The translations under genes and the position numbers were made by a program. From assembly GCA_038142205.1 (NCBI GenBank), contig JAYQJO010000001.1, positions 678,527 through 742,526 on the forward strand: a stretch of DNA of 64,000 nt, written 5' to 3'. This stretch comes from Pseudomonadota bacterium (GTDB taxonomy: Bacteria > Pseudomonadota > Gammaproteobacteria > Eutrophobiales > Eutrophobiaceae). The notes under the pieces were generated by a model that was given only the letters and a program-made list of their open reading frames with translations, was not told the origin of the DNA and searched no databases. Positions 1 to 64,000 of the stretch are shown piece after piece; positions within the stretch are counted from its first letter, which is position 1; every line of letters starts with the position of its first letter.

Positions 1-2109
1 GCCAAAGACGCAAATAAGGAAGAAAGCAACGACGGAACCACAGGTTTTACATATACCGTTAAGCTCGACAATGCTGCATCAGAGGCTTTCGATGTTAACT
101 GGAAAGTAGGTGATGACAGCAAGACCAACAAAGATGATTTCGCAGCGGACACTGGAAAGTTAAGTTTTGCCAAAGGCGATCAATCAAAAGATCTGGTGGT
201 TCAAGTCAAAGGTGATAAGGCATGGGAGGGTAATGAAGAGTTCACCGTTGCGATTGATGAAACCACACTACCAAAGGGAATTAAGCTGGGCGCCAATTCT
301 ACAGCAAAGGGAACGATCAAAAATGACGATTACCCAACTATTTCAATCGTTGGTCCAGGAGACAGCGTAAATGAAGGAAACAGCGATTCAGAATTAGTTA
401 TTTTTGCTGTTTATGTTCAAGATAATGGAAATGAAATTTCCTCTGATAAGGTGATATCAGCTGTCACGATCGATTGGAAGATATTGTTAGAAAGCGAGAA
501 TGCAACGGATAAAAACGATTTTACCGATGATACAAAGTTATCAGGAACTTATAAGGTTGATAAAGATACAGCTTCATACAATTATCTGGATTTCAAGGTA
601 AAAGGGGATGAGATCTGGGAGTCAGACGAAACAGTTACTATTGAAGTTACGCATTCAATTATCGAATCTGGACAAACCAAAGAGTTAGGGAAAACGCGTA
701 GTTCCGTAACAATAAAAAATGATGACGCGAAAGATTACTGCGCTGACGATCCTTGTAAAAATAACGGTCAATGTAGTAACGATTTAGAAAAGAAAACATT
801 TAGTTGTGCTTGTACCACAGAGTATAAAGGAACGACTTGTGATCAGTTAATAAACAACCCACCTGTCGTTAAAAAGAAGATAGAGGATCAGATAAAAACA
901 GTAGGAGACTGGGTATATTTGCAATTTAATTATACTGATTATTTCAGTGATGCGGATGGTGACGGTCTTGCTCTGGAGATAACAGGTTACCCTGAAAGCT
1001 TGTCTTTTACTTATCCTACTCCCGGCGGTGGCAGCATGATTAGTGGTACGCTGAAAGATAAGGATGTCCGAGAACACACAATCACCGTCACTGCAAAAGA
1101 TGGTAAAGGTGGCAAAGAATCGACAACCTTCAAGCTGACTGTTAAGGCTAAAGATAATTCAAGTATTATAAATGCAACATGTCCTGTAGTGACACCATTC
1201 AGATGTCCGGATAACACATGTAAAGCAACACACTCAGATTGTACTAGAACATCGTCAGCTACCGGCTGTCCTAAAATCACATGTCCTGATGGAAGTTGTG
1301 TTGAATATATAGCAAGTTGCCCTAAAGCTTCGACTAGTACTGCTTCAAGCAAAAAAACAACTGACTTCAAAGTCGTTAATAAAACAGTGTCTGTTTCACA
1401 AACAATCGATGAAAAAGAAGACAGCGACGGTAATAAGTCACTTACCTTTACCATTGAATTGAGTTGCCCAACAGACAAACCGGTTGAATGTTCAGCGAAT
1501 ACCTGTGCGCCAACACAAGCAGAGTGCACGACAACGGGAACGACATGTTCAGGTACGACACCCGTACAATGTGCTGATGGTAGCTGTGCAGTAAATCAGA
1601 CGAGTTGTCCTACAGTAGGGACGACTTGTGCAGCACCGACACCATTCAGATGTCCGGATAACACATGTAAAGCAACACAATCAGATTGTCCTGCTGAGAC
1701 ATCATCAGCATGCGCTACTGGTCAAGTGTTATGCAAAGATGGTTCATGCGCTAGTTCACCAAATCAGTGTCCTACAGTAGGGACGACTTGTGCAGCACCG
1801 ACATCGATTAGATGTCCGGATAACAGATGTAAAGCAACACAAGCAGAGTGCACGACAACGGGAACGACATGTTCAGGTACGACACCCGTACAATGTGCTG
1901 ATGGTAGTTGTGCAGTAAATCAGACGAGTTGTCCTACAGTAGGGACGACTTGTGCAGCACCGACACCACTCAGATGCCCTGATAACACATGTAAAGCAAC
2001 ACAATCAGAGTGTACTAGAACATCGTCAGCTACCGGCTGTCCTGCGACAGCGCCAATTACATGTAATGATGGAAGTTGTAGACCTACTTTAGGCGAGTGT
2101 CCGAGATAA
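1..2109 (+). CDS. Large secreted/surface protein, 3' part only (the gene starts upstream of the window). It has Calx-beta-like motifs, an EGF-like module, and tandem Cys-rich repeats.
   Basis: Frame 1 is open from nucleotide 1; the first ATG in the ORF track is at 196. The motif 'DDxWEGNEEFTVAID...TIKNDD' resembles Calx-beta. 'CADDPCKNNGQCSNDLEKKTFSCACTTEYKGTTCDQ' has EGF-like cysteine spacing. It is followed by repeated 'CPDNTCKATQSDC' and 'CADGSCAVNQTSCPTVGTTCAAPT' units. Repeats 1516-1641 and 1850-1975 are near-identical at the nucleotide level. Confidence 0.7.
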   Translation, partial: AKDANKEESNDGTTGFTYTVKLDNAASEAFDVNWKVGDDSKTNKDDFAADTGKLSFAKGDQSKDLVVQVKGDKAWEGNEEFTVAIDETTLPKGIKLGANSTAKGTIKNDDYPTISIVGPGDSVNEGNSDSELVIFAVYVQDNGNEISSDKVISAVTIDWKILLESENATDKNDFTDDTKLSGTYKVDKDTASYNYLDFKVKGDEIWESDETVTIEVTHSIIESGQTKELGKTRSSVTIKNDDAKDYCADDPCKNNGQCSNDLEKKTFSCACTTEYKGTTCDQLINNPPVVKKKIEDQIKTVGDWVYLQFNYTDYFSDADGDGLALEITGYPESLSFTYPTPGGGSMISGTLKDKDVREHTITVTAKDGKGGKESTTFKLTVKAKDNSSIINATCPVVTPFRCPDNTCKATHSDCTRTSSATGCPKITCPDGSCVEYIASCPKASTSTASSKKTTDFKVVNKTVSVSQTIDEKEDSDGNKSLTFTIELSCPTDKPVECSANTCAPTQAECTTTGTTCSGTTPVQCADGSCAVNQTSCPTVGTTCAAPTPFRCPDNTCKATQSDCPAETSSACATGQVLCKDGSCASSPNQCPTVGTTCAAPTSIRCPDNRCKATQAECTTTGTTCSGTTPVQCADGSCAVNQTSCPTVGTTCAAPTPLRCPDNTCKATQSECTRTSSATGCPATAPITCNDGSCRPTLGECPR

Positions 2110-2137
2110 AAGAATGATGAGAACACTTAACTACATA

Positions 2138-2290
2138 TTTTTCTTTTTTTCTCAGTGTTTGGTATTTTTATATTACCTGTCGTTAGTGCGGACGAAGACT
2201 CTGTGTCCGTTCCTTATTCTATTGATGGCATTAATCAGGATGATGTACTTGAAGATGGTAAGTTAAAAGGTAATGTCGAGTTTAAAAAAA
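2138..2290 (+). other. Homopolymer tracts (T5+T7 at 2138-2150; A7G4 at 2284-2294) that separate a signal-peptide-like N-terminus from the body of the surface-protein gene. They may be phase-variation switches or homopolymer miscalls.
   Basis: Three reading frames each carry one protein-like piece of a single N-terminal region. Switching frame at the T and A runs gives a continuous signal peptide plus mature protein. Confidence 0.45.
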
Positions 2291-4735
2291 GGGGAGAACT
2301 CTAAAACCATTACAATAAAAATAAAAAAGGATGCGAGTAAAAGTGGTGATGACGAACCTAAATTCTCACTTGGCGAAACGGATGATAAGAAAGTAAAACG
2401 CGGTAAAAATAATTCCGTCGCGATTAAACTGCCTGATACTCTGAAGCCTGCTGTCGCGAAAAACACCCCACCGACGGGTGCTGATAAGACAATTCAGGTA
2501 TTAGGAAACGACTCTTATACAAAAGCTTCGGAATATAGTGGCGCTTATTATGAATTTTCAGAAAAAGACTATGGTTTTAGTGATGCAGATGAGGGTGATT
2601 CTCTTTATACAGTTAAAATACTAAGTTTACCTGAGAGAGGGTGGTTATCAGGAGTTTTCTCTAATGGTACTTCAGGAAATCCGAAAGTCGGTGATGTGTT
2701 AGATAGTATTTATCTTGATGCATTGAGGTATTACCCCGTCGATGATGAGAGCGGTACCGTTAGTTTTCAATTTAGTGTCTCTGACAGTAAAGCCTTTTCT
2801 GTGCCCTATACCATGACGTTGAATTTTTCATGTCCTGAAGGTGAAGAATTAAAAGATGGTAAGTGTGTTGCAAAGAATACCCCACCGACGGGTGCTGATA
2901 AGACAATCCAGGTATTAGGAAACGACTCTTATACAAAAGCTTCGGAATATAGTGGCGCTTATTATGAATTTTCAGAAAAAGACTATGGTTTTAGTGATGC
3001 AGATGAGGGTGATTCTCTTTATACAGTTAAAATACTAAGTTTACCTGAGAGAGGGTGGTTATCAGGAGTTTTCTCTAATGGTACTTCAGGAAATCCGAAA
3101 GTCGGTGATGTGTTAGATAGTATTTATCTTGATGCATTGAGGTATTACCCCGTCGATGATGAGAGCGGTACCGTTAGTTTTCAATTTAGTGTCTCTGACA
3201 GTAAAGCCTTTTCTGTGCCCTATACCATGACGTTGGATTTTTCTGCTGTAGAGAAAACGAACACGCCTACTATTCAAGCCAACAGAAATATCATTGCGAA
3301 ACCGAATCCGGTTGAGTCAGGTGGTGTCGTCAGTCTTGATGCCAGAGGTACAGGTGTTTTTTATCAATATACAATTGAACCCGGTGCTCATACTGAAAGA
3401 TGGGAAGGATTTTGTGTTCCCGGCATTGCCGATAGAGCAACAATTGAGGATAACTCAAGCAAAACACCTGGGAATAACTTTAGCAAAAAAGGTCCTGCTC
3501 CATTTAATTTCATAGATGGAAAAATCGTTTTTGAGAATGATACGCTTAAAACCACGTGGACTGCGCCGATCAATACGACGAATGAAGTTATGACGTGTAA
3601 ATTAACGGTTATTGCTTCAAACAACGACGGCAATGCGTTTGCTCAATCTGTATTTGTCACTGTCTTACCTACTAAACAAGTCGCTGATACCAATTTGGTC
3701 GATGACAAACTGACACCCAAACCTAAGAAGGAATTTAAGTTAGTCGAGAACAGCAGGAAATTCTTGTTATATGATTCGCGTTTAATTAATGGCATCAGCT
3801 TAACTCAAGAAACAAGCTTTACTGATGCAGTTAATGCCGCTATTAATTGTCCTGCCAATAAACCGATACTTTGTTCGGATATGACATGTGCGGTATCAGA
3901 CGATGCGTGTACGACAACAACAACTACGACCACAACAGCCGCTGCGCCACCTGAAATCTGCGGTAACCTTGTTGATGATGATGGAGATACTCTTATCGAC
4001 TTTGCCGACCCTGATTGTACTACTGCGGAAAACGCTGGTGCAGGAAACTGTGGTGATTTTTTTGATAATGATAATGATGGCTTAACAGATTTTGCCGACG
4101 CTGGTTGTACTACTGCGGAAAACGCTGGTGCAGGAAACTGTGGTGATTTTTTTGATAATGATAATGATGGCTTAACAGATTTTCTCGACCCTGATTGTGT
4201 TGAAACAATATGTAATGACTTTACTGATAATGACAGTGATGGCGCTATAGATTTTGCTGACCCTGATTGTACTACTGCGGAAAACACTGGCGCAGGAAAT
4301 TGTGCTGACGGATTTGATAATGATAATGATGGCTTAACAGATGGGGCTGACCCAGATTGCGCACCAGCGTCATCGGCATTAACACTGGTTCCGCCTTTAC
4401 TTAACGATACTTCGTTTGCAAATACAATTGTGATTGTCGTCAATGGAGCAAATCTTAGTACGGTAATAGATGCTGACGCAGACTCGGTGGCGAACTCGCT
4501 ATTTCATGTACAGTTTACTGGTCCAGGAAGTGCTCTTGCGGTTCCTGCCACAGGTACCACTGTTGATAACACGAATATGTTGATGGACGGACCAAACATT
4601 GGACTCGGTTTTACAAGAGGCGGTATTACTTATGAAATCAATCTCGGTTTGACCATTACTTTTGACGATGACATTACCACCGATGCCTTGAGCGGTAGAA
4701 ATTGTGGGGCAGGAGGGACAGCACCATGTCCATGA
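2273..4735 (+). CDS. Large repeat-rich surface protein. It contains a 138-aa tandem duplication, a poly-Thr linker, and Cys-bracketed DxDxDG calcium-binding-like repeats. The true start may lie upstream at 2114, reached through two homopolymer frame changes.
   Basis: An 820-aa ORF. Near-identical direct repeats lie at 2459-2832 and 2873-3246. 'TTTTTTTTAAAPP' follows. Then come three 30-aa units, 'CTTAENAGAGNCGDFFDNDNDGLTDFADxxC'. The ATG at 2114 (frame 2) encodes 'MMRTLNYIFFFF'. Frame 1 continues as 'FSVFGIFILPVVSA|DEDSVSVPYSIDG...' after a T5/T7 run at 2138-2150. It rejoins the frame of 2273 at the A7 run at 2284-2290. Confidence 0.65.
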   Translation: MSSLKKGENSKTITIKIKKDASKSGDDEPKFSLGETDDKKVKRGKNNSVAIKLPDTLKPAVAKNTPPTGADKTIQVLGNDSYTKASEYSGAYYEFSEKDYGFSDADEGDSLYTVKILSLPERGWLSGVFSNGTSGNPKVGDVLDSIYLDALRYYPVDDESGTVSFQFSVSDSKAFSVPYTMTLNFSCPEGEELKDGKCVAKNTPPTGADKTIQVLGNDSYTKASEYSGAYYEFSEKDYGFSDADEGDSLYTVKILSLPERGWLSGVFSNGTSGNPKVGDVLDSIYLDALRYYPVDDESGTVSFQFSVSDSKAFSVPYTMTLDFSAVEKTNTPTIQANRNIIAKPNPVESGGVVSLDARGTGVFYQYTIEPGAHTERWEGFCVPGIADRATIEDNSSKTPGNNFSKKGPAPFNFIDGKIVFENDTLKTTWTAPINTTNEVMTCKLTVIASNNDGNAFAQSVFVTVLPTKQVADTNLVDDKLTPKPKKEFKLVENSRKFLLYDSRLINGISLTQETSFTDAVNAAINCPANKPILCSDMTCAVSDDACTTTTTTTTTAAAPPEICGNLVDDDGDTLIDFADPDCTTAENAGAGNCGDFFDNDNDGLTDFADAGCTTAENAGAGNCGDFFDNDNDGLTDFLDPDCVETICNDFTDNDSDGAIDFADPDCTTAENTGAGNCADGFDNDNDGLTDGADPDCAPASSALTLVPPLLNDTSFANTIVIVVNGANLSTVIDADADSVANSLFHVQFTGPGSALAVPATGTTVDNTNMLMDGPNIGLGFTRGGITYEINLGLTITFDDDITTDALSGRNCGAGGTAPCP
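2459..3246 (+). repeat. Tandem direct duplication inside the surface-protein gene. The copies are 2459-2832 and 2873-3246 with a 414-bp period.
   Basis: About 372 bp with only 3 mismatches, encoding a 122-aa module 'AKNTPPTGADKTIQVLGNDSYTK...SVPYTMTL'. Confidence 0.9.
4016..4350 (+). repeat. A 90-bp tandem repeat (two identical copies at 4016-4105 and 4106-4195, and a diverged third at ~4268-4350). It encodes the motif 'CTTAENAGAGNCGDFFDNDNDGLTDFxDxxC'.
   Basis: Read directly from the sequence. Confidence 0.85.
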
Positions 4736-5295: not shown

Positions 5296-5297
5296 AC

Positions 5298-14508: not shown

Positions 14509-14584
14509 GGGTGCTTAGCTCAGTTGGTAGAGCGTCGCCTTTACACGGCGTAGGTCGGGGGTTCGAATCCCTCAGCACCCACCA
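14509..14584 (+). tRNA. tRNA-Val (anticodon TAC).
   Basis: GGGTGCT...AGCACCC-A-CCA. Anticodon stem CGCC/GGCG with loop TTTACAC. Similar to E. coli tRNA-Val(UAC). Confidence 0.9.
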
Positions 14585-14617: not shown

Positions 14618-14694
14618 GGAGTGGTAGTTCAGTTGGTTAGAATACCGGCCTGTCACGCCGGGGGTCGCGGGTTCGAGTCCCGTCCACTCCGCCA
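14618..14694 (+). tRNA. tRNA-Asp (anticodon GTC).
   Basis: Near-identical to E. coli tRNA-Asp: GGAGTGGTAGTTCAGTTGGTTAGAATACC...CTGTCACG...GGGTTCGAGTCCCGTCCACTCCGCCA. Confidence 0.92.
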
Positions 14695-16746: not shown

Positions 16747-18008
16747 TTAATATATTTTTTCCCCTTCAGTTTTGGCAACAATAACTGCGCAACAACTGTC
16801 ACTAAATACGTTTACAGCTGTTCTTGTCATATCCAGAATCCTGTCCGTTACCAGAAGCAAGCCAATTCCTTCCAACGGTAAACCAATAACACCGAGAATA
16901 ACAGTAATTGCGACAAGACTGGCTGCAGGAATACCGGCAACACCGATTGATGTTAAAAGAGCGACAAGAACGATTGTAAACTGTGTTGTAAAAGTCAGAT
17001 CCAGACCATAAGCTTGAGCAATAAATATTGCAGCAACACACTCATATAAAGCCGTACCATCCATGTTGATGGTTGCCCCTAACGGTAATACGAAAGAAGT
17101 TGTCTGGTTTGATACGCCTGCCTTTTTTCTATACATTCCATAGTAATGGGTAATGTGCCTGAGGAAGACGCCGTTGAAAAAGCAGTAAGCATTGCCGGAG
17201 CCATCGTCGTGTAATGACTTAACGGGTTTATCTTTACAACAGTTTTTAATAATAAAGCCAGCGTTATAAATTTATGAAAAAGTAGTGCCAGTAATACAGT
17301 TATAAAAAATAAAAGCAAGGGCTGGAAAGCACTAAAACCAGTAGCCGTAATTGTTTTAGCCACAAGCCCAAATACACCGATGGGCGCAAACTTCATAACA
17401 AACATGGTTATTGCCATCATTGTGTTAAACACGCCTTGCCAGAAGTTTTCTAAAGCCTGTTTTTGTTGTCCAGCAAGTTGGCTCATAAAATAGCCAAATA
17501 ACATGCCGAAGAAGATGAGTCCAAGCATTTGACCTTCGGCTGCTGCTTTTACGATATTGGTCGGCACCATACGAAGAAAAACATCGGTTATATCACTGGC
17601 ACTGCGATCTTCAACACGTTCTAATTGAGAAGCGACTTCTGTATCTGTACTCAGATTGAGTATTTCTCCTGCCGGTTTCCCATCAACGATGCCAGGCGTT
17701 AGAACATTGACAAAAATTAGGCCGATAAGAATAGCTAATAGACTTGATAATAAATAAAAACCTATTGTTTTACTTCCCAGTCGTCCAAGGTTTTCACTAG
17801 CACCGATACTGGATATGCCGCAAATAATAGAGGAAAGCACAAGCGGCACGATGATCATCTTCAGCGCATTTAGAAAAAGGGTGCCGATAAAGCTAAAGAT
17901 GCTATAGAAAGTGACACTGCCTATAGCAGTGTCCTTATCTATCATTGCCCCAATCAGCATTGCCAAAATAATGGCAATAAGAATTTGCCAATGTAATTTC
18001 AGCTTCAT
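16747..18008 (-). pseudogene. Dicarboxylate/amino-acid:cation symporter (DAACS, GltP/SstT-like), split by a -1 frame change in a T6/A6 run at 17123-17128.
   Basis: The N-terminal ORF 17079-18008 and C-terminal ORF 16747-17136 overlap. The expected DAACS motif '...[13 protein letters not shown]|[27 protein letters not shown]' is restored if the A6 run (minus strand) is A7. Confidence 0.65.
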
Positions 18009-18967: not shown

Positions 18968-21148
18968 GTGACCACAAAATACATAAAAATAATAAATAGA
19001 ATGAAGTTCGGCACTATATGGCTATTTCTCTGCTCATTCTTGCTTGCAGGGTGTGAGCAATCGGCATGGAATAACCCCTACCCGCAAGAGGATGCGTCTA
19101 AACGCATCTATTATGACTCGTTTTCTGAGCGCCCCAAGCATCTTGACCCGGTCAGTTCCTATAGTTCAAATGAATATGTGTTTTTAGGACAAATTTACGA
19201 GCCGCCATTGCAATATCACTTTTTAAAGCGTCCTTATGAATTAATACCGCTTACAGCGACAGAATTACCAAAGCCGGTATATCTGGATAGTGCTGGCAAT
19301 GTTTTAGATGAAAATGCTGATCCTGAAAAAATTGAACAGGTTAAATACAGCATTTCAATCAAACCAGGTATTTTATTTCAGCCACACCCTGCATTCGCAA
19401 AAGATGCTAGTGATAATTACCTTTATCATGATCTGAATCCTGAAAAATTAACGAATATTTATACCCTGTCTGACTTTGATGTAGTTGGTACGCGTGAATT
19501 GCTGGCAAAAGATTATGTTTATCAGATAAAAAGAATGGCGCATCCGAAAATTCATTCTCCGATTGCCGGACTAATGGGTAAGTATATTGTTGGGCTGACT
19601 GAACTCGCTAAAGAATTACATGATATTGATTTATCAAAAACAAACTACATTGATTTGAATGAGTATGAGTTGCCGGGTGTAAAGGTCATTGATGATATGA
19701 CGTTTGAAATAACACTGAATCAGAAATACCCGCAATTTATATATTGGTTATCGATGAGCTTTTTTGCACCAATGCCGTGGGAAGCGGATTACTTTTATAC
19801 ACAAGAGGGTATGAAAGATAAAAACATAACACTTGATTGGTATCCGGTAGGCACAGGGCCATTCATGTTGTCAGAAAATAATCCAAATCGGCGAATGGTT
19901 TTGAAACAAAACCCGAACTTTCGTGGTGAAGCGTATCCGAAAGAAGGAGAGGAGGGTGATAGAGAATTAGGTTTGCTTGATGATGCGGGTAAGGAAATGC
20001 CATTTATCGATATGGCTATTTATAGCCTAGAAAAAGAGTCGATACCGTCATGGAATAAGTTCCTGGAAGGTTATTACGATACTTCAGGTATTGTTTCAGA
20101 TAGTTTTGATCAGGCTGTTCAGTTTAATGCCCAAGGTGATGCGCAACTAACGGGCGAAATGCAGGAAAAAGGAATACGTTTAATAACAGCAATAACGACA
20201 TCAACTTATTACAATGGTTTTAATATGGCGGATGACGTGATTGGCGGTAATAGTGAAAGCGCGCGCTTATTAAGACAAGCTATATCAATAGCAGTAGATT
20301 ACGAAGAATATATTTCAATATTTGCAAATGGACGTGGCAAACCGGCACAAGGACCTATTCCACCAGGAATATTTGGCTCTGTCGAAGGGGAAGCAGGAAT
20401 AAACCCTTATGTATATGAATGGAAAAATGGTAAACCTGTCAGACGCGATATTGAATACGCAAAAGAATTAATGGTTAAAGCTGGCTATCCCAATGGACGA
20501 GATCGGGAAACAGGTAAGCCCTTAACATTAAACCTTGATACACCTGCATCAGGACCGGGTGCTAAAGCGGTATTCGACTGGATACGAAAACAATACGACA
20601 AGCTCGGTATTAATCTTGTTGTACGTGCAACTGACTATAATCGTTTCCAGGAAAAAGTACGTAAAGGCACAACGCAAATTTTTCAATGGGGCTGGAATGC
20701 GGATTACCCTGATCCGGAAAACTTTTTCTTTTTACTCTATGGCCCGAATGGAAAAGTTAAATATCAGGGAGAGAATGCGTCAAATTACAGTGATCCAGAA
20801 TTTGATAAATTATTTAATCAAATGAAAAGCATGAGTAACTCACCTGAAAGACAGGAAGTTATAAATCAGATGGTTGATATTGCCAGAAAAGATGCACCCT
20901 GGTTATGGGGCTTTCATCCTGTAGGTTTTTCTTTGCATCATGGTTGGTATCACAATGCAAAACCAAACCTGATGGCAAACAATAAATTAAAATATCGTCG
21001 CATAGAACCGCAGCAACGTTCAGAAAAACGAATAGCATGGAATAAACCTGTTTGGTGGCCGATTGCATTAGTCGTAATATTGGTAGTAGCGATATTACTG
21101 CCGGGTATTATTTCCTATCGCCGCAGAGAGAGGGAAGTAATCTTATGA
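18968..21148 (+). CDS. Family-5 solute-binding protein of a YejABEF-like peptide ABC transporter. It is predicted to be a lipoprotein, and an extra C-terminal TM helix is also predicted.
   Basis: The lipobox is 'LFLCSFLLAGCEQ' (likely start at M 19001). The SBP_bac_5-like body is larger than YejA (726 vs ~600 aa). The C-terminus ends 'WWPIALVVILVVAILLPGIISYRRRE'. Confidence 0.8.
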   Translation: MTTKYIKIINRMKFGTIWLFLCSFLLAGCEQSAWNNPYPQEDASKRIYYDSFSERPKHLDPVSSYSSNEYVFLGQIYEPPLQYHFLKRPYELIPLTATELPKPVYLDSAGNVLDENADPEKIEQVKYSISIKPGILFQPHPAFAKDASDNYLYHDLNPEKLTNIYTLSDFDVVGTRELLAKDYVYQIKRMAHPKIHSPIAGLMGKYIVGLTELAKELHDIDLSKTNYIDLNEYELPGVKVIDDMTFEITLNQKYPQFIYWLSMSFFAPMPWEADYFYTQEGMKDKNITLDWYPVGTGPFMLSENNPNRRMVLKQNPNFRGEAYPKEGEEGDRELGLLDDAGKEMPFIDMAIYSLEKESIPSWNKFLEGYYDTSGIVSDSFDQAVQFNAQGDAQLTGEMQEKGIRLITAITTSTYYNGFNMADDVIGGNSESARLLRQAISIAVDYEEYISIFANGRGKPAQGPIPPGIFGSVEGEAGINPYVYEWKNGKPVRRDIEYAKELMVKAGYPNGRDRETGKPLTLNLDTPASGPGAKAVFDWIRKQYDKLGINLVVRATDYNRFQEKVRKGTTQIFQWGWNADYPDPENFFFLLYGPNGKVKYQGENASNYSDPEFDKLFNQMKSMSNSPERQEVINQMVDIARKDAPWLWGFHPVGFSLHHGWYHNAKPNLMANNKLKYRRIEPQQRSEKRIAWNKPVWWPIALVVILVVAILLPGIISYRRREREVIL

Positions 21149-22120
21149 TGGCTTATATCGTAAGGCGTATTGCTTATGCCATTCCCATACGCATAGGTGT
21201 CAATATCATTACGTTTCTATTGTTTTTTGTTGTTAATACACCTGATGATATGGCTCGTATGCAACATGGCGCGAAACATGTTAGTGAAGCTGCCATAGAA
21301 AAGTGGAAAGAAGAAAGGGGCTATGACAAACCGATACTCTGGAACAGCGATGCCGAAGCATCAGAAAAAATAACGGATACGATCTTTTTGAAAACTCAGT
21401 AAAACTGTTTTTGTTTGATTTTGGTCGTTCAGATAGTGGCCGTGATATTAGTTATGATATCAGTCAGCGTATGTGGCCCAGTCTTTCTATTACAGTACCC
21501 AGTTTACTATTAGGTCTATTGGCCTATATCACCTTTGGTTTAATACCGCCTTCTTCCGCGGCAGTTATATTGATGTATCCGGTGTTATTCTTTGTGTTGC
21601 CATGATGTCGATATCCGGTTTGTTTTATATTATTGGCGGCCAGTTTCTAATAGGTAAAGTTCTGCATCTTGTGCCTATTTCCGGCTATGACACAGGGCTT
21701 AATGCAATTAAATTTACAGTCTTACCCGTATTAATCGGTTTGGTTGGCGGTATTGGTGCGAGTACCCGTTGGTATAGAACTATTTTTCTTGAAGAGATGG
21801 GGAAGGATTATGTGCGTACAGCAAAAGCGAAAGGCTTATCAGAAACGATAGTTTTATATAAACATGTATTAGCGAATGGACTTATTCCAATTTTGACGGG
21901 AGTTGTTGTTATTCTGCCTACTTTATTTATGGGGAGTTTAATTGTTGAGTCCTTTTTCGCTATTCCCGGTTTAGGCAGCTATACCATCGATGCAATTAGT
22001 GCGCAGGATTTCGCCATTGTACGCTCGATGGTCTTCCTAGGTTCTGTGCTTTATATTATTGGTTTGATATTAACTGACATCTCTTACACTCTCGTTGATC
22101 CAAGAGTGAGGCTAAACTAA
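21145..22120 (+). pseudogene. YejB-like ABC permease, interrupted by two -1 frame changes (near 21365-21395 and near 21548-21560).
   Basis: Three consecutive ORFs in frames 1, 3 and 2 (21145-21402, 21411-21605, 21473-22120) together align colinearly with E. coli YejB. The matched segments are 'MMAYIVRRIAYAIP...', '...LFLFDFGRSD...SITVPSLLLG...', and '...RGSYIDVSGV...EAA-loop...DISYTLVDPRV'. Confidence 0.6.
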
Positions 22121-28825: not shown

Positions 28826-28854
28826 CTTGATCCGGCAAATGGCAAAGCCTTATT

Positions 28855-35626: not shown

Positions 35627-35654
35627 AGATAATCGGTAGATAATCAGTAAAATA

Positions 35655-37774: not shown

Positions 37775-39247
37775 TTATAAAGAAGGGTTTGTTATACGAC
37801 TGCTTATCTGTTTTGCCAATTGTAATGATTCATTCAACTCGATTTCGGATAGTTCACTTTTAAGCCTGTCTCTGCGATGTAAATCCATTGCATTTCCAGT
37901 GTAGGCAACTACTTCATACCATGCCAATGCTTGCACCTTATTTTGTTCTACTCCTGTACCATTGAGGTACATTGTTGCCATATTTCTTTGAGCAATGGTA
38001 TGGCCTTGTTCAGCTGCTTTTCGATACCATTCGGCGGCCTGTTTATTATCTTGCCGCACGCCTTCACCATATGCGAATGCAACGCCCAGCTTATATTGTG
38101 CAAGTACATAACCTTGTTCTGCTGCTTCATAAAAAAGATTAAAAGCAGTGCGATCATTCTGAGGAACACCATCACCAAAAGTATAGGCTAAAGCTTGCTC
38201 ATATAACGCTTCAACAGAGTTATCATTTTCAGTTTGTTCATCATCAAGACTAACTAATTGTGAAGTGTTAGTTGTTTCTACTTCTGTTTCTTCAATAATA
38301 GCTACTTGTGTTTTTTGTATATTAGCAAGATTGTGCTCAGCTGAAGTATGTCCTTGTTCTGCTGCCATGGCATACCATTCTGCAGCTTGCTCATCGTTTT
38401 GTTCGACACCTTCTCCCATTAACTACATGTTGCCTAAACTGTACTGCGCATCAATATTGCCTTGTTGCGCCGCGCGTCTATACCAAAGCGCGGCTTGAAT
38501 GTAGTCTTGTTTAACATCATTACTCGCATAATATAACGTGCCTAATTGATACTGAGCATCAGCATCACCTTGCGTAGCTAATGAACGGATACGATCTATT
38601 TCAGACAATGTTGGAACATTTTCGGCAAGTTCTTCATTAACTGTTGTTTCAATTTCTGTTGTAGATTCGATAGTTTCACTATCAGCTAAGGCAATAGTTT
38701 CTGTGTTTTCATCACTACTACCGAATAAGCGTGAAAAGAACCCAGGTGATTCTTCCTCTATAGCAGGTTCACTTATTTCTATATCAGCGATTAATCCAGA
38801 CTCTTCATTAGAAGCAAGTTCAAATGTTTCTATAGGCTCTTCAACTATTTCTTCGGCACTTGCTGTTTTTGTTTCTGTAGTAACGATTTCTTCATCATTT
38901 ACAGATTCTACTTCTTTTATTTCATTCGTTGTTTGAAGAGCGATAGCATCAACGTCTTCTTTCGTTTTTTGTTGGTCATCATTACCAAATAACCGTGAAA
39001 AGAAACCTGGTGAATTTTCTTTTTCTGCTATCGTTGTGTTATTGGGTTCTATCTCTGTTATTAACTCTGTTTCTTCTTCATTAAAAATAACTTCGTTTTC
39101 TATTGTTTCATCTACGATTGTAGTCTTTTCGACTTCAACAACTTTATTTTCTTCTGTTTCGTCAGTCTCTAAAGTTGCAAAATCATCTTGTTTTTCTTCT
39201 TCCTCATTAATTGCCTCAGTTTTTGCTGTTTCTTGTTCTGTTGCCAA
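37775..39247 (-). pseudogene. Sel1-repeat protein with an in-frame TAG at 38423-38425. The N-terminal half is acidic low-complexity and contains two 'SPGFFSRLFG' motifs. It may be the continuation of the upstream Sel1 gene.
   Basis: ORFs 38423-39247 and 37775-38419 are in the same frame, separated only by the TAG. Read through, the sequence is 'AQYSLGNM-*-LMGEGVEQNDEQAAEWYAMAAEQGH', a canonical Sel1 repeat in which Tyr (TAY) is replaced by TAG. Upstream there is no ATG. The frame is open back to the A7 run at 39298-39304. Confidence 0.6.
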
Positions 39248-56093: not shown

Positions 56094-57266
56094 ATGAAAA
56101 TTATTCTTGCACCCGATTCATTTAAAGAAAACTTAACCTCGTTACAAGTTGCTACGGCACTGGAAAAAGGCGTGAAACGCGTACTACCTAAAGCTAATTG
56201 TATCAAAGTACCTATGGCAGATGGTGGTGAAGGTACGGTGCAATCATTAGTTGATGGAACCGGAGGTAAGTTTCTTCGTAAAAAAGTGATAGGGCCAGCT
56301 GGCAGTAAAGTTTCTGCGCGTTACGGTATGTTGGCTGACGGTGAAACAGCGGTGATTGAAATGGCTGAAGCATCAGGACTACATTTAGTTAGTGGTAAAA
56401 CCCAGAATCCGTTAAAAACAACAAGTTATGCTACGCGACAATTAATGCTTGAAGCTGCGAAACGCGGTGCAAAGAAAATTATTATTGGTATCGGTGGTTC
56501 TGCAACCAATGAGGGCGGGGTCGGCATGGCTCAGGCATTAGGTGTTCGTTTTCTCAATAGAAGCGGACAGGAGATTACTGATCTGGGTGCAGGCGGCATG
56601 ATCAATAAAATTGGCAGTGTTGATATAAAAAATCTGAATCCATTAATTAAAAAAGTAAAAATTATTGTTGCCTGCGATGTGAATAATCCTTTGTGTGGTA
56701 AGAAAGGAGCATCAACTGTATTTGGTCCTCAAAAAGGAGCAACACCAGCAATGGTTAAAAGATTGGATGCTAATTTAAAACATTTAGCTACGATTATTAA
56801 AAAGGACTTAAAGAAAAGTGTTATGTCCGTTAAAGGTGCTGGTGCAGCAGGCGGCTTAGGCGCTGGCTTATTTGCTTTTACTAACGCCAAAATGAAAAGC
56901 GGTGTTGATATCGTAATTGAAGCAACAGAGCTACATAAGCACTTAAGAGGTGCGGACTTGGTTATAACCGGTGAAGGTCGCGTTGATTTTCAAACTGCTT
57001 TCGGAAAAACACCTTCAGGTGTTGCAAAAGCAGCGCGTAAACATCGTGTGCCAACAGTTGCTATTGGTGGCGGTATTACAGATGATGCGAATGGTGTTTT
57101 CACACATGGCATTGACGGTTTGGAAAGTGCCTGCGCGCGTGATATGCCATTAGACGTTGCAATTAGTTATTCAAAACCGCACCTTACTAATGCAGCAGAA
57201 CGTGTTGTCCGTTTAATTCTTATTGGCAAGAAGATGGCCATGAGTAAACGTAGAGAACGAAAATAA
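56094..57266 (+). CDS. Glycerate kinase.
   Basis: 'MKIILAPDSFKENLTSLQVA...VPMADGGEGT' is the hallmark glycerate kinase (GarK/GlxK) N-terminus. The ATG at 56094 is preferred over the TTG-extended ORF. Confidence 0.85.
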   Translation: MKIILAPDSFKENLTSLQVATALEKGVKRVLPKANCIKVPMADGGEGTVQSLVDGTGGKFLRKKVIGPAGSKVSARYGMLADGETAVIEMAEASGLHLVSGKTQNPLKTTSYATRQLMLEAAKRGAKKIIIGIGGSATNEGGVGMAQALGVRFLNRSGQEITDLGAGGMINKIGSVDIKNLNPLIKKVKIIVACDVNNPLCGKKGASTVFGPQKGATPAMVKRLDANLKHLATIIKKDLKKSVMSVKGAGAAGGLGAGLFAFTNAKMKSGVDIVIEATELHKHLRGADLVITGEGRVDFQTAFGKTPSGVAKAARKHRVPTVAIGGGITDDANGVFTHGIDGLESACARDMPLDVAISYSKPHLTNAAERVVRLILIGKKMAMSKRRERK

Positions 57267-59579: not shown

Positions 59580-59689
59580 AGATAAAGCTCCTGATTAAAG
59601 TAGTCTCAATATAATATGCCAGATAATCTTGAAATTCATCAAGCTGAGTACAGTGTGAATGGCAGTTTTATTGAATGTAAAATATAAGT

Positions 59690-60439: not shown

Positions 60440-60441
60440 TT

Positions 60442-63078
60442 TTATGTCAGCTCAAATGACTCTACCATGTTTGATTCAGTAAGATTTTTCTGAATTTCTC
60501 CGACAAAATTGCCCAAGGTATAATCTGTTCCTGCAGTAATTGCATCAGTTAATAGCGTTGAGTCCTCTATGCCGTATGTAATGATTTTTATATTTTTTGA
60601 TTTAATATATTGAAGTAAGGTTAGTTTTTCTTCTTGTTCTTCATTATCTGAGACACTGTTTTCTTCTGAATTTGGTGCAAGCACATCTGATAATTTTTGT
60701 AACTGTTCGGTATTTGCAATCAATAACTTTGATGTGGTTAAAGAACAATATTCAGATAAGTTTTCAATCGTGTTTAAATTCGAAAGCGAAACAGTAAAGC
60801 CGTGCGTTTTACGTAAAGTATCAATCAATGCCTGAGCACGTTTTTGATGCTTAATAAAAAGATCAAGTGGCACATCCAATATTATTGATTTTCCGGGGCT
60901 GTATTTTTTTGTTTGCTGCAATATTTTTTGTAACCACTGGAATAATGCTATATCTGAAAACCACGATTCAGTTGCACTAACTAAAAAAAGATACTGACAT
61001 TCACTGGTGCCACTTTCTGTAATTCTCAAGAATATTTGTCTGAGTACCCATTCATTTATTGCTTGTTGTAATGTAAGTGAAAAAGCAGAAGTGTCTGCTA
61101 AATATTCATTAAGCGCTTCATTTTCTGATAAAGCTTGAAGCCCTGTTTTATAAATTTCTCTGGGATCGCTTTCATCTTCAAACATGGCAGTAACAGGTTG
61201 ATACGTCTGAATGATTTTGTTTTCATCAATTAATTTATTGATTTGACTTTCGATTTCTTCAATCGAAGACTCGCTGTTTTCTTCGTTTTCATCTTCCTGC
61301 TTTGTTTTCTGAGCTGCTTTTTCATTAGCTTGCTTTTGCACTTCTTCCTGAAGTGCATTGCTATTTTTAGTTTCTTCTATTTTCGTTATCCGTGGAGTCA
61401 CTTCTTTGTTATCAGCAGGTTTTTCTACTTCAGTATCTGGCTGATTTTTCTGATTAGTTTTGACCTCAGTCATCGCTTTTAATTCAGCTTCTAATTTTTC
61501 TTTTTGTTCTCTCGCTGCTCGCATTTCTGCTTCAGCTTCTTCCTTTGCTTTGGCAATTGCTTTTAATTCAGCTTCCATTTTTTCTTTTTCTTGCCGTGCC
61601 GCATTCATTTTTGCTTCAGCTTCGGCTTTTTCATTTTCTTCTTGTTCTGCTCGAAGAGCGACTTGGGCCTTTTCGGCCTCTTCTCTCGCTTTTAGTTGAG
61701 CTTGAAGTTTTTCTTTTTCTTCTTCGGCAGCTTTAATTTTCGCTTCAGCTTCAGCTTTTTCTTTTGCTTCCTGTTCTGCTCGAAGAGCGACTTGGGCCTT
61801 TTCGGCTTCTTCTCTCGCTTTTAGTTGAGCCTGAAGTTTTTCTTTTTCTTCTTCGGCAGCTTTAATTTTCGCTTCAGCTTCAGCTTTTTCTTTTGCTTCC
61901 TGTTCTGCTCGAAGAGCGACTTGGGCCTTTTCAGCTTCTTCTCTCGCTTTTAGTTGAGCCTGAAGTTTTTCTTTTTCTTCTTCGGCAGCTTTAATTTTCG
62001 CTTCAGCTTCAGCTTTTTCTTTTGCCTCTTGTTCTTCTTGTATAGCAGCTTGTGCTTTCGCTTGTTCTTCTCTCGCTTTTAATTCAGCTTCAAGCTTTTC
62101 TTTTTCTTCTTCGGCAGCTTTAATTTTCGCTTCAGCCTCAGCTTTTTCTTTTGCTTCTTGTTCAGCATGAGCAGCTTGTTCTTTCGCTTGTTCTTCTCTA
62201 GCTTTTAATTCGCCCTCAAGTTTTTCTTTTTCTTCTTCGGCAGCTTTAATTTTCGCTTCAGCTTCAGCTTTTTCTTTTGCCTCTTGTTCTTCTTGTAGAG
62301 CAGCTTGTTCTTTCGCTTGTTCTTCTCTAGCTTTTAATTCGCCCTCAAGTTTTTCTTTTTCTTCTTCGGCAGCTTTAATATTCGCTTCAGCTTCAGCTTT
62401 TTCTTTTGCTTCCTGTTCAGCTTGTATAGCAGCCTGTGTTTTTTCAGCTTTTTCCTTTGCTTTTAATTCGGCCTCAAGTTTTTTCCTTGCTTCTTCGGCA
62501 GCTTTAATTTTCGCTTCAGCTTCGATTTTTTCTTTTTCTTCTTCGGTAGCTTTAATTTTCGCTTCAGCTTCGGCTTTTTCTTTTGCTTTTCGTTCAGCTT
62601 GTAGCGCGGATTGCGCTTTTTCAGCTTCTTCCTTTGCTTTTAATTTAGCTTCGAGTTTTTTCTTTTCCTCTTCTATGGCCAGCATCTTTGCTTCAGCTTT
62701 TTCTTTCGCCTCCTGTTCTGCTTTCAAAGCTGCTTGCGCTTTTTCTGCTTCTTCTTTTGCTTTTAATTGAGTCTGGAGTTTTTCTTTTTCTGCTTCAGCC
62801 GCTTTAATTCTTGCTTCAGTCTCGGTTTTTTCTTTCGCTTTTTGCTCAGCTTTTAATGCAGCTTGTGCTTTTTCTGCTTCTTCCTTGCTTCTTAATTCTG
62901 CTTCAAGTTTTTCTTTTTCTTCTTCGGCGACTCTAATTCTCGCTTCAACTTCTTCTTTTTCTTTTAGAATGGCTTTAGACTTTTCTTCATTTTTTTCTGC
63001 CGATAAAGTTTCAGCTGCAATTGCATCATTTTGAGACTGTTCTACAAGCTCAGAGGGAGGGCATCTGAATCTTTCCAT
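60442..63078 (-). CDS. The C-terminal two-thirds of a c-di-GMP signalling protein. It has about 14 tandem 43-aa E/K/A-rich helical repeats followed by a degenerate EAL domain.
   Basis: The repeats are of the form 'AEAEAKIKAAEEEKEKLQAQLKAREEAEKAQVALRAEQEAKEK', encoded by 129-bp units at ~61440-62990. The C-terminal ~260 aa have an EAL-fold topology ('TYQPVTAMF', '...IITYGIEDSTLLTDAITAGTDYTLGNFVG'). However, the EAL and DDFGTG motifs are replaced. Confidence 0.7.
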   Translation of the reverse strand: MERFRCPPSELVEQSQNDAIAAETLSAEKNEEKSKAILKEKEEVEARIRVAEEEKEKLEAELRSKEEAEKAQAALKAEQKAKEKTETEARIKAAEAEKEKLQTQLKAKEEAEKAQAALKAEQEAKEKAEAKMLAIEEEKKKLEAKLKAKEEAEKAQSALQAERKAKEKAEAEAKIKATEEEKEKIEAEAKIKAAEEARKKLEAELKAKEKAEKTQAAIQAEQEAKEKAEAEANIKAAEEEKEKLEGELKAREEQAKEQAALQEEQEAKEKAEAEAKIKAAEEEKEKLEGELKAREEQAKEQAAHAEQEAKEKAEAEAKIKAAEEEKEKLEAELKAREEQAKAQAAIQEEQEAKEKAEAEAKIKAAEEEKEKLQAQLKAREEAEKAQVALRAEQEAKEKAEAEAKIKAAEEEKEKLQAQLKAREEAEKAQVALRAEQEAKEKAEAEAKIKAAEEEKEKLQAQLKAREEAEKAQVALRAEQEENEKAEAEAKMNAARQEKEKMEAELKAIAKAKEEAEAEMRAAREQKEKLEAELKAMTEVKTNQKNQPDTEVEKPADNKEVTPRITKIEETKNSNALQEEVQKQANEKAAQKTKQEDENEENSESSIEEIESQINKLIDENKIIQTYQPVTAMFEDESDPREIYKTGLQALSENEALNEYLADTSAFSLTLQQAINEWVLRQIFLRITESGTSECQYLFLVSATESWFSDIALFQWLQKILQQTKKYSPGKSIILDVPLDLFIKHQKRAQALIDTLRKTHGFTVSLSNLNTIENLSEYCSLTTSKLLIANTEQLQKLSDVLAPNSEENSVSDNEEQEEKLTLLQYIKSKNIKIITYGIEDSTLLTDAITAGTDYTLGNFVGEIQKNLTESNMVESFELT
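61440..62990 (-). repeat. About 14 tandem copies of a 129-bp (43-codon) coding repeat, several identical at the nucleotide level.
   Basis: The periodicity is seen in 'tcttcggcagctttaattttcgcttcagc' recurring at 61721, 61850 and 61979 (interval 129). Confidence 0.85.
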
Positions 63079-63716
63079 ATGTAAAAGGAATTGCCTATTG
63101 AGCTACTAGCATTATCACATGCTGCAGATGCTATATAAATTAACTGTCCTGCTGTTTTATCAAATACCCCAAGTTTTAAAATACCTATGCTGACAGAAAA
63201 AACATATTTTTCTTCAGCGAACTTAAAAGTACTTTTTGCAAGATGATCACATAAACCTTGCATATTAAAACTCAGTGTTTCCAAATTAATCGGGTAATCA
63301 ATTTGAATTCCAATTTCTGTATCACTAATTTTTGTAATATTTGGGTTGCATGCGCCTAATTTAAAAGTGTCATAACTGTTTTTCGCAATGTGATTGATTA
63401 ACCTGTCTTTGCCTATGACACCAACCTGTTCTTCAATAAGATCAAGATTGTCAGGTTTGATAATAATAAGTGCACGCTCAGGAAGGTTTGAATCAAATGC
63501 TTTTTCAAGATTTTCATAAAATACTTCTTTGCTAAAAGAGCGGTTATGTTGTGTTAATTCCTGTTTTTTTTGGCGTTCAGCTTTTTTAGCTTCCCATGCA
63601 TGGATGACGGATTGTTTTAATTTGTCTTTGGTTAGTGACTGTTTAGGTAGGTATTCATATATTCCCGTTTTTAATGCGCGCACCGCAATTTCTTCAGTGC
63701 CTGCGCCTGTTAGCAT
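63042..63716 (-). CDS. Degenerate GGDEF-like domain; the middle segment of the same signalling gene.
   Basis: '...MLTGAGTEEIAVRALKTGIYEYLPK' is the end of a REC domain. Then come GGDEF-like elements ('ALIIIKPDNLDLIEE', 'KYVFSVSIGIL') without a GG(D/E)EF motif. The 37-nt overlap with the downstream ORF is in a frame that differs by one nucleotide, as a single-base deletion would produce. Confidence 0.6.
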   Translation of the reverse strand: MLTGAGTEEIAVRALKTGIYEYLPKQSLTKDKLKQSVIHAWEAKKAERQKKQELTQHNRSFSKEVFYENLEKAFDSNLPERALIIIKPDNLDLIEEQVGVIGKDRLINHIAKNSYDTFKLGACNPNITKISDTEIGIQIDYPINLETLSFNMQGLCDHLAKSTFKFAEEKYVFSVSIGILKLGVFDKTAGQLIYIASAACDNASSSIGNSFYIWKDSDALPLSL

Positions 63717-63979
63717 TATTGTTGCGGGGAATGTGTTTTTTTGTGATGCTTATGGAGTACATCCAGTCCTGTTGTTCCAACGATCGATAAGTGATAATCA
63801 AGTAACAATACATCTATATCTGACCAGTTATAGCTATCATCAGGCACGCCTTCAAAAACCGGATCAAGTTCAATAACTTCAGTGCCGGGTAAAAGCTTGC
63901 TGATAAATGTATTTATTAATTTACGATAATCAGAATTATCATCGATGATTAATATTTTTTCTAAATTAGAATCAGACAT
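63716..63979 (-). CDS. Response-regulator receiver (REC) domain; the N-terminal segment of the same gene. It is separated from the rest by a -1 frame change in a T7/A7 run at 63737-63743.
   Basis: 'KILIIDDNSDYRKLI...DVLLLDYHL...GLDVLHKHHKK'. Then, with A8 in place of A7, 'NTFPATIMLTGAGTEEIAVRALKTG' gives a complete CheY-like fold. Confidence 0.7.
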   Translation of the reverse strand: MSDSNLEKILIIDDNSDYRKLINTFISKLLPGTEVIELDPVFEGVPDDSYNWSDIDVLLLDYHLSIVGTTGLDVLHKHHKKTHSPQQ

Positions 63980-64000
63980 AAGTTATAAAAATTATTGTAT

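What the first reader, a model, noticed from the sequence alone, without database searches (positions are those of the whole stretch)
1..64000. At least nine genes are broken by apparent -1 single-base deletions, most in homopolymer runs (probable systematic miscalls rather than pseudogenes)
The frame-breaking sites found are listed here. (1) The T5/T7 run at 2138-2150 and the A7 run at 2284-2290 at the 5' end of the surface-protein gene. (2) The T6 run at 17123-17128 in the DAACS symporter. (3) An A6 or T5 run at ~21365-21390 in yejB. (4) A CC dinucleotide at ~21553 in yejB. (5) The C5 run at 33485-33489 in the FAD oxidoreductase. (6) The A7 run at 37198-37204 in mlaF. (7) The T7 run at 39298-39304 joining the two Sel1 ORFs. 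(8) The junction at 63042-63078 in the signalling gene. (9) The T7 run at 63737-63743 in the same gene. In every case a conserved motif is restored by adding exactly one base, so the run becomes n+1. Examples are [36 protein letters not shown], and the REC motif IMLTGAGTEE. In every case the downstream frame offset is the one expected from a deletion. That uniform direction is the signature of homopolymer under-calling by flow-based or nanopore sequencing. It is not what random pseudogenisation would produce. Some of the affected genes are near-essential (mlaF), which argues the same way. Gene calling on this assembly will fragment many genes.
Basis: seen in the sequence. Interest (0 to 1): 0.55.

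Follow-up and report, generated by a model that had tools for sequence, protein, structure and literature searches.

The report
Assembly errors, not real pseudogenes
Seven genes in this stretch look broken only because the deposited long-read assembly mis-counted bases, mostly in runs of one letter; other assemblies of the same bacterium have all seven genes intact, so this is a data-quality problem, not biology.

Summary
There are ten indel events in seven genes, not nine genes. I compared the window with independent metagenome contigs of the same organism (99.0-100% identical, at least 11 samples, covering 63,532 of 64,000 bases). The only small indels separating the window from them are exactly these ten. 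At every site all other assemblies carry the frame-restoring version (1 to 5 samples per site), and the genes there are full length with complete Pfam domains. Eight other species also keep the longer spacing at the three sites I could check.

Three points need correcting:
- Direction is not uniform. Eight sites are -1, the A7 at 2284-2290 is +1 (true A6), and 63052-63053 is a +2 'AG'.
- Site 21546 is a lost lone T, not a homopolymer.
- Two sets of coordinates are off, by 11 and by 1 base.

The window also has 40 private substitutions. They look like noise (ts:tv 8:32, no codon-position bias, 28 nonsynonymous plus 1 nonsense against 10 synonymous). The 302 shared natural polymorphisms look selected (225:77, mostly synonymous). 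The window crosses repeats where short-read assemblies break, and it sits on a 2.66-Mb NCBI contig, so it is probably a long-read assembly.

Verdict: consensus errors of roughly Q31; of low biological interest.

The parts
2144..2150 (+). T7 run in the signal-peptide codons of the surface-protein gene (2114..4735). It is one T short; the true length is T8.
   Evidence: L001/L121 (ENA TAOJ22-1 scaffold_11) has T8 and an intact 873-aa ORF beginning MMRTLNYIFFFFFSVFGIFILPVVSADEDS. Only one independent sample covers this site.
2284..2290 (+). A7 run in the same gene. It is one A too long (true A6), so this is an over-call, not a deletion.
   Evidence: L001 has A6. The ATG at 2114 and ORF 2273..4735 are in the same frame in the window, so the two indels must have opposite signs.
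17123..17128 (-). T6 on the + strand (A-run in the coding strand) in the sodium:dicarboxylate symporter gene 16747..18008. It is one base short.
   Evidence: T7 in 3 samples (L008, L117, L118). The intact 420-aa protein matches Pfam SDF over 1-386 of 387 positions.
21385..21389 (+). T5 run in yejB (21145..22120), one base short.
   Evidence: T6 in 5 samples (L008, L117-L120). The intact 325-aa protein has BPD_transp_1_N and BPD_transp_1.
21546..21547 (+). A single T is missing between these two C's in yejB. It is not a homopolymer site.
   Evidence: The window reads ATAC-CGCC and 5 samples read ATACTCGCC.
33485..33489 (-). C5 on the + strand (G-run in the GxGxxG FAD motif) of the pyridine-nucleotide disulphide oxidoreductase gene 32087..33541. 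It is one base short.
   Evidence: C6 in 4 samples. A 99.0%-identical strain (L018) has AACCCCC, which is the same length with a synonymous change. The intact 484-aa protein matches Pyr_redox_2 over 2-291 of 291 positions. Relatives L037, L039-L041, L043 and L053 also have the extra base.
37198..37204 (-). A7 on the + strand in mlaF (36904..37700), one base short.
   Evidence: A8 in 5 samples. Six other species have eight bases here, with varying sequence. The intact 265-aa protein matches ABC_tran over 1-136 of 137 positions.
39309..39315 (-). T7 on the + strand joining the 616-aa and 274-aa Sel1 ORFs, one base short.
   Evidence: T8 in 4 samples. The intact protein is 1120 aa with 12 Sel1 repeats. 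Relatives have the extra base.
63052..63053 (-). Two extra bases: 'AG' on the + strand, or CTCT instead of CT on the coding strand. They lie in the REC/GGDEF-like/EAL gene (60442..63979).
   Evidence: L027 lacks them. Homologues from other assemblies (68-89% identical) read IWK[DE]sD..PE straight through. Only one same-species sample covers this site.
63736..63742 (-). T7 on the + strand in the receiver domain of the same gene, one base short.
   Evidence: T8 in L027. The repaired protein matches Response_reg over 1-109 of 111 positions. HKHHKK..FPATIMLTGAGTEE is continuous in five homologues.
28823..28825 (+). A window-private G-to-T change (GAA to TAA). It cuts the acetyltransferase (28391..28876) from 161 to 144 aa.
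   Evidence: All 9 covering loci have G. The gene is called at 161 aa in other assemblies.
56431..56439 (+). A cluster of four private transversions within 9 bases of the glycerate kinase gene. SYGTGE becomes SYATRQ.
   Evidence: The covering contigs, from 3 samples, all agree against the window.
36205..36234 (-). Three private A/T transversions in mlaE, each changing an amino acid.
   Evidence: All 10 covering loci agree against the window. This explains why the window's MlaE has no exact match on record.
38423..38425 (-). An in-frame TAG in the Sel1 gene. This is a natural nonsense polymorphism, not an error.
   Evidence: Four references have TAT, but the independent short-read contig L022 also has TAG and there the gene is called as 904 + 214 aa.
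61458..63006 (-). A tandem array of about 12 units of 129 bp (43 aa, Glu/Lys/Ala-rich) inside the signalling gene. The window spans it but short-read assemblies do not.
   Evidence: Contigs from four samples all end at 61672. L027 has 100 N in place of 61887-62354.
14618..14694 (+). tRNA-Asp, next to tRNA-Val at 14509-14584. The short-read scaffolds break here and the window runs through.
   Evidence: TAOJ22-1 scaffold_11 ends at window 14669 and scaffold_70 starts at 14642.

Best explanation
The window comes from a public assembly on a 2.66-Mb NCBI contig. The organism is an uncultured gammaproteobacterium with about 39% G+C. The consensus was most probably built from long reads and is about Q31 in quality. 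When the consensus was called, homopolymer lengths were mis-counted: usually one base short, once one base long. A few other local errors were also made: a lost T, a duplicated dinucleotide and 40 substitutions, partly in clusters. Each indel shifts the reading frame, so seven intact genes appear as two or three ORFs. One substitution creates a false stop in an eighth gene.

Shown here:
- The indels and substitutions are private to this assembly.
- The other assemblies carry intact genes.
- The private changes have a noise-like spectrum and are clustered.

Inferred:
- That the cause is sequencing or consensus error rather than very recent mutation.
- That the platform was a long-read one.
For: 1. 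Independent contigs of the same organism (99.0-100% identity, at least 11 samples) cover 63,532 of 64,000 bases. The only 1-2-base indels against them are the ten frame-breaking sites, and at each site every covering contig has the frame-restoring version.
2. The genes in those contigs are full length with complete Pfam matches: SDF 1-386/387, Pyr_redox_2 2-291/291, ABC_tran 1-136/137, Response_reg 1-109/111 and 12 Sel1 repeats.
3. Eight other species (70-87% DNA identity) have the extra base at the FAD, mlaF and Sel1 sites although the sequence there differs. Protein homologues from other assemblies read through both sites of the signalling gene.
4. The error rate rises with run length. 4 of 11 true A/T 8-mers are shortened, against 1 of 32 7-mers, 2 of 88 6-mers and 0 of about 300 5-mers.
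5. The 40 window-private substitutions have ts:tv of 8:32, codon positions 12/12/15, and 28 nonsynonymous plus 1 nonsense against 10 synonymous. The 302 polymorphisms the window shares with at least one reference have 225:77, 214 at third positions, and 221 synonymous against 69 nonsynonymous. Fisher p is 3e-11 and 1e-9.
6. Private events are clustered. There are 10 gaps of 100 b or less against 3.8 expected, P=0.002.
7. The window runs through a tRNA pair and a 1.5-kb tandem array where short-read assemblies stop. Its fragment ORF 63042..63716 is on record from an NCBI contig of 2,664,267 b.
8. Homopolymer indels that fragment gene calls are a documented property of unpolished or low-coverage nanopore assemblies and MAGs (PMC9262707).
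Against: - No reads or base qualities are available, so error against very recent real mutation is inferred, not observed.
- Sites 2144, 2284, 63052 and 63736 are each checked against a single same-species sample, the TAOJ22-1 assembly.
- By my recollection, which I did not check here, nanopore substitution errors favour transitions. The private substitutions here are transversion-rich and roughly uniform, so the platform and the cause of the substitutions remain unclear.
- Slippage mutation in vivo is also length-dependent, so point 4 alone does not discriminate.
- A lineage under fully relaxed selection would also show a high nonsynonymous share.
Confidence: 0.9

Rival explanations
1. The frameshifts are real. 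The sequenced lineage is a very recent offshoot undergoing pseudogenisation, for example a hypermutator or a newly host-restricted clone under relaxed selection.
For: - Indels in runs are what mismatch-repair-deficient lineages accumulate.
- The high nonsynonymous share of the private substitutions also fits relaxed selection.
- Sel1-repeat and large adhesin-like genes hint at host association.
- One natural nonsense allele does exist in the population, at 38423.
Against: - None of the 10 indels or 40 private substitutions is seen in any other sample, while all 302 remaining polymorphic sites are shared with at least one.
- A ratio of one frameshift per four substitutions, with 13% of genes hit at under 0.1% divergence, is far above natural ratios (general knowledge).
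- The spectrum is 80% transversions, a third of them A<->T, which fits no known mutator; repair-deficient lines give transitions (general knowledge).
- Four substitutions within 9 bases and similar clusters are not independent mutations.
Confidence: 0.05
2. Some tracts are phase-variable contingency loci switched by slipped-strand mispairing, above all T8 and A6 at the 5' end of the surface-protein gene. On this reading the window records an OFF variant.
For: The two tracts sit in and just after the signal peptide of a secreted repeat protein, which is the classic position for such switches. Only one other sample covers them, so variability is untested there.
Against: - Two opposite-sign changes are needed where one would be enough to switch the gene off.
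- The same kind of change hits housekeeping genes (mlaF, yejB, the symporter), where 3-5 samples show no length variation.
- Tracts of 6-8 bases are short for contingency loci (general knowledge).
Confidence: 0.03
3. The genes are expressed despite the shifts, by programmed ribosomal frameshifting or transcriptional slippage on the A/T runs.
For: Runs of A or T can support transcriptional slippage, as reported for endosymbionts with long poly(A) tracts (general knowledge).
Against: A programmed shift would be conserved. Here every other assembly and every related species has the in-frame version. Two sites are not in runs at all.
Confidence: 0.01
4. The window is correct and the short-read assemblies are wrong.
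For: None, beyond the fact that four of the sites are checked by one sample only.
Against: - Contigs from different studies and pipelines (the ENA-held TAOJ22-1, WANG22-1 and k141-named assemblies, and Logan) agree with one another.
- Their version gives intact conserved domains.
- Their version matches the spacing in other species.
Confidence: 0.01

Closest known systems
Homopolymer indel errors in long-read (notably Oxford Nanopore) consensus assemblies and MAGs, which fragment gene calls (Sereika et al. 2022, PMC9262707; the IDEEL test)
   Same: - Single-base indels, mostly deletions, in runs of 5-8 bases.
- The rate rises with run length.
- Genes are split into adjacent ORFs.
- The contig is very long and spans repeats.
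- Short-read data from the same organism show the corrected length.
   Different: - Two of the ten events are outside homopolymers and one is an over-call.
- The accompanying substitution errors are transversion-rich, which is not the usual nanopore pattern as I recall it (not checked here).
- Seven 8-mers and one 9-mer are called correctly, so the assembly is partly accurate or polished.
- The platform is not known.
Genuine frameshift pseudogenes in bacteria undergoing reductive evolution
   Same: Adjacent ORF fragments of conserved genes, with frameshifts often in runs.
   Different: Here the disruptions are private to one assembly at under 0.1% divergence. They come with noise-like substitutions and are absent from every other sample.
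Phase-variable homopolymer tracts (contingency loci)
   Same: T and A tracts at the 5' end of a secreted surface-protein gene.
   Different: The tracts are short. No length variation is seen among samples where that could be tested. Identical events occur in housekeeping genes.

Membership tests
Long-read consensus (homopolymer) indel artefact | The indel lies in a homopolymer run and changes its length by one | tested here: met
   This holds at 8 of 10 events. The exceptions are 21546 (a lone T) and 63052-63053 (a +2 dinucleotide).
Long-read consensus (homopolymer) indel artefact | The variant is absent from independent, short-read-based assemblies of the same organism | tested here: met
   All 10 events are private to the window, checked against 1 to 5 independent samples per site.
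Long-read consensus (homopolymer) indel artefact | The error rate increases with run length | tested here: met
   36% of true A/T 8-mers, 3% of 7-mers, 2% of 6-mers and 0% of 5-mers are miscalled. In-vivo slippage shares this property.
Long-read consensus (homopolymer) indel artefact | The assembly derives from long reads | tested here: inconclusive
   This is indirect. The window spans a tRNA pair and a 1.5-kb tandem array that break short-read assemblies, and its ORF is on a 2,664,267-b NCBI contig. The record and platform could not be retrieved.
Long-read consensus (homopolymer) indel artefact | Read pile-ups or base qualities show ambiguity or the longer run at the sites | not testable with these tools
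   No reads are available.
Genuine pseudogenes / reductive evolution | The disruptions are heritable, that is, shared by independent samples of the lineage | tested here: not met
   None of the ten indels is shared. Only the TAG at 38423 is shared (with L022), and that is a substitution.
Genuine pseudogenes / reductive evolution | The accompanying substitutions have a natural mutational spectrum | tested here: not met
   The private ts:tv is 8:32, against 225:77 for natural polymorphisms in the same window.
Phase-variable contingency locus | Tract length varies among independent samples or reads | tested here: not met
   There is no variation among 3-5 samples at sites 17123, 21385, 33485, 37198 and 39309. 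It is untested for 2144 and 2284, which only one sample covers.
Programmed frameshift / transcriptional slippage | The out-of-frame arrangement is conserved in relatives | tested here: not met
   All conspecific contigs and all related species that could be checked are in frame.

The most novel reading that the evidence does not exclude
A minority of the sites could be real, population-level on/off variants rather than errors. The best candidates are the T8/A6 tracts at the start of the secreted repeat protein (2144-2290). Together with the demonstrably natural TAG allele that splits the Sel1 protein at 38423, that would mean this organism varies its surface and host-interaction proteins by slippage and nonsense alleles.
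Probability: 0.04. Interest if true: 0.3.

Novelty: not a real feature. Interest (0 to 1): 0.1.

Why it matters
The value is practical, not biological. Extrapolating from this window gives about 10 frameshifts per 64 kb, or roughly 400 across a 2.66-Mb contig. That means about one gene in eight would be split or truncated in this public assembly. Gene calls, protein clusters, pseudogene counts and metabolic reconstructions drawn from it would be misleading. It would also wrongly suggest reductive evolution in an uncultured lineage that other data show to have intact genes. The test used here is reusable: compare private against shared differences with other assemblies, looking at indels, ts:tv and codon position. 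It separates assembly noise from real pseudogenisation without needing reads.

Tried and rejected
- **Exact-protein look-ups that found nothing.** The window's MlaE, PpiD and Pol IV-like protein have no exact match on record. Each turned out to carry a window-private amino-acid change (36205/36226/36234, 16392 and 46359), which itself supports the error reading.
- **Source record.** Looking up P0006, the window's own 224-aa fragment, gave no contig. The source record, sample and platform therefore stay unknown.
- **JGI metagenome scan.** A scan for the site-9 region allowing 7 or 8 bases in the run found nothing.
- **GTDB representative genomes.** These hold only related species (best 98% amino-acid and 87% DNA identity), not the window's own assembly.
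- **Coding bias.** I considered whether all errors falling in coding sequence was suspicious. It is not: 93.6% of the window is coding, and 33 of the 37 7-mers, 6 of the 7 8-mers and nearly all the shorter runs lie in genes.
- **Planted changes.** I considered whether the changes were added to the window after deposition. This is rejected at least for the two signalling-gene frameshifts, because the fragment ORF they delimit is already in a public protein collection from an NCBI contig.
- **Small inversion.** I considered a small inversion to explain the 56431-56439 cluster. The window segment is not the reverse complement of the reference segment.
Full report
**Check of the observation**

To test them against something independent, I looked up intact window proteins by exact sequence in public assemblies. 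This returned contigs from at least 11 different samples: the ENA TAOJ22-1 and WANG22-1 metagenome assemblies, two other ENA assemblies, many Logan assemblies of SRA runs, and one JGI metagenome. They are 99.0-100% identical to the window. Together they cover 63,532 of the 64,000 bases; only 61887-62354, inside a tandem array, is uncovered.

I listed every indel between the window and these contigs.

| Site in window | Window | Other assemblies |
|---|---|---|
| 2144-2150 | T7 | T8 |
| 2284-2290 | A7 | A6 |
| 17123-17128 | T6 | T7 |
| 21385-21389 | T5 | T6 |
| between 21546 and 21547 | T missing | T present |
| 33485-33489 | C5 | six bases |
| 37198-37204 | A7 | A8 |
| 39309-39315 | T7 | T8 |
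| 63052-63053 | extra AG | absent |
| 63736-63742 | T7 | T8 |

At every site all covering contigs disagree with the window. The number of independent samples is:
- one for the two surface-protein sites and the two signalling-gene sites;
- three for the symporter site;
- five for the two yejB sites, the oxidoreductase site and the mlaF site;
- four for the Sel1 site.

**Corrections to the observation**

- There are ten events in seven genes, not nine genes.
- Direction is not uniform. The A7 run at 2284 is one base too long. This is visible in the window itself, because the ATG at 2114 and the main ORF 2273..4735 share a frame and only the 141 nt between the two runs is shifted.
- The event at 63052 is a two-base insertion: CTCT instead of CT on the coding strand.
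- The yejB site near 21550 is the loss of a lone T (TACTCGCC has become TACCGCC), not a C from a CC pair.
- The Sel1 run is 11 bases from the stated coordinates, and the last run is 1 base off.

**What the intact versions look like**

In the other assemblies the genes are called at full length:
- surface protein, 873 aa;
- symporter, 420 aa;
- YejB, 325 aa;
- oxidoreductase, 484 aa;
- MlaF, 265 aa;
- Sel1 protein, 1120 aa.

Their Pfam matches are complete across the break points: SDF 1-386 of 387, BPD_transp_1_N plus BPD_transp_1, Pyr_redox_2 2-291 of 291, ABC_tran 1-136 of 137, and 12 Sel1 repeats. The 873-aa protein begins with a plausible signal peptide.

For the signalling gene, repairing the two sites as in L027 gives one ORF of about 1180 aa. 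It has a receiver domain (Response_reg 1-109 of 111), a GGDEF-like middle part, a long repeat region and a weak EAL domain. Five homologues from other assemblies, 68-89% identical, read straight through both sites.

In eight other species (70-87% DNA identity) the oxidoreductase, mlaF and Sel1 sites all have one base more than the window, although the bases themselves differ there. Length is therefore conserved while sequence is not.

**Errors or real mutations?**

The frameshifts are private to this assembly, so they arose either in its own very short branch or in its making. Four results point to its making.

1. The window also differs from all covering contigs at 40 substitution sites, and these look like noise. 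They have 8 transitions to 32 transversions, codon positions 12/12/15, and 28 nonsynonymous plus one nonsense against 10 synonymous. The 302 sites where the window agrees with at least one other assembly look like ordinary evolution. They have 225 transitions to 77 transversions, 214 at third positions, and 221 synonymous against 69 nonsynonymous. Fisher p is 3e-11 and 1e-9.
2. The private events are clustered. There are ten gaps of 100 bases or less where 3.8 are expected, P=0.002. Examples:
   - four transversions within nine bases that turn SYGTGE into SYATRQ in glycerate kinase;
   - three in mlaE where ten loci agree against the window;
   - three substitutions beside the symporter indel and two beside the yejB indels.
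3. The miscall rate rises with run length: 4 of 11 true A/T 8-mers, 1 of 32 7-mers, 2 of 88 6-mers and none of about 300 5-mers. In-vivo slippage would also do this.
4. One frameshift per four substitutions, hitting 7 of 55 genes at under 0.1% divergence, is far from natural ratios. That last comparison rests on general knowledge.

That all the indels lie in genes is not informative, because 93.6% of the window is coding.

**Where the sequence comes from**

The fragment ORF 63042..63716 is held in the protein collection as P0006. It comes from NCBI, from a contig of 2,664,267 bases, with no protein accession. The two signalling-gene frameshifts that delimit this ORF are therefore already in the public record. 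The record itself could not be retrieved.

The window runs through a tRNA-Val/tRNA-Asp pair, where the TAOJ22-1 scaffolds end and begin. It also runs through a tandem array of about 12 units of 129 bp, where short-read contigs from four samples all stop at 61672 and one scaffold has 100 N. A megabase-scale contig of an uncultured bacterium that spans such repeats is most simply a long-read assembly. This is inference.

Homopolymer indels that fragment gene calls are a documented weakness of nanopore assemblies and of low-coverage MAGs (PMC9262707). The transversion-rich substitutions are not what I would expect from nanopore data (my recollection, not checked here), so I do not name the platform.

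**Rivals**

- Real recent pseudogenisation, or a mutator lineage, is not excluded without reads. It is contradicted by the spectrum, by the clustering and by the complete absence of the variants elsewhere.
- Phase variation is conceivable only for the T8/A6 tracts at the start of the surface-protein gene, where a single sample is available. Two opposite changes would be an odd way to switch a gene off, and the same kind of change hits housekeeping genes that show no length variation among samples.
- Programmed frameshifting is contradicted by the in-frame versions in all relatives.

**Verdict**

The details need correcting: seven genes, ten events, eight -1, one +1, one +2, two outside runs, plus 40 substitution errors, one of which makes a false stop at 28823.

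The consensus quality here is about 50 errors in 63.5 kb, or roughly Q31. Extrapolated to the whole contig, that implies several hundred false frameshifts. This is an artefact of a known kind and of low biological interest. It is worth flagging for anyone who uses this assembly.

Noticed in passing
window 38423-38425 (- strand): There is an in-frame TAG in the 1120-aa Sel1-repeat gene. Four other assemblies have TAT (Tyr), but the independent short-read contig L022 (SRR15322231) has the same TAG and splits the gene into 904 + 214 aa. This is a genuine nonsense polymorphism in the population, unlike the indels.
   Followed up: partly
window 28823: A window-private G-to-T change turns GAA into TAA and shortens an acetyltransferase (28391..28876) from 161 to 144 aa. 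It is an eighth damaged gene that was not in the finding.
   Followed up: yes
window 60442-63979 (- strand): Once repaired, the 'signalling gene' is a protein of about 1180 aa. It has a receiver domain, a GGDEF-like region, about 12 tandem 43-aa Glu/Lys/Ala-rich (probably coiled-coil) repeats and a weak EAL domain. Related 580-aa REC-GGDEF-EAL proteins lack the repeat insert. Copy number cannot be checked, because short-read assemblies collapse here.
   Followed up: partly
window 56431-56439, 56513-56519, 36205-36234, 17236-17312: These are tight clusters of window-private transversions that change conserved residues, for example SYGTGE to SYATRQ in glycerate kinase. They point to locally poor consensus rather than to independent mutations.
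   Followed up: yes
whole window; loci L001-L036, L117-L129: The same organism appears at 99.0-100% nucleotide identity in at least 15 unrelated sequencing runs and assemblies (ENA, Logan, JGI). This uncultured gammaproteobacterium (closest named MAGs are 'Thiotrichaceae bacterium') is therefore widespread and has low diversity. Its habitat was not looked up.
   Followed up: no
window 35627-35637: An 11-base intergenic segment between mlaC and mlaD is absent from two roughly 99%-identical strains (L023, L024). It is an ordinary indel polymorphism.
   Followed up: partly
window 2452-2829 and 2866-3243: The surface-protein gene contains two 378-base direct repeats that are 98% identical, plus further internal repeats. 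The upstream Calx-beta gene (1-2109) is also internally repetitive.
   Followed up: no
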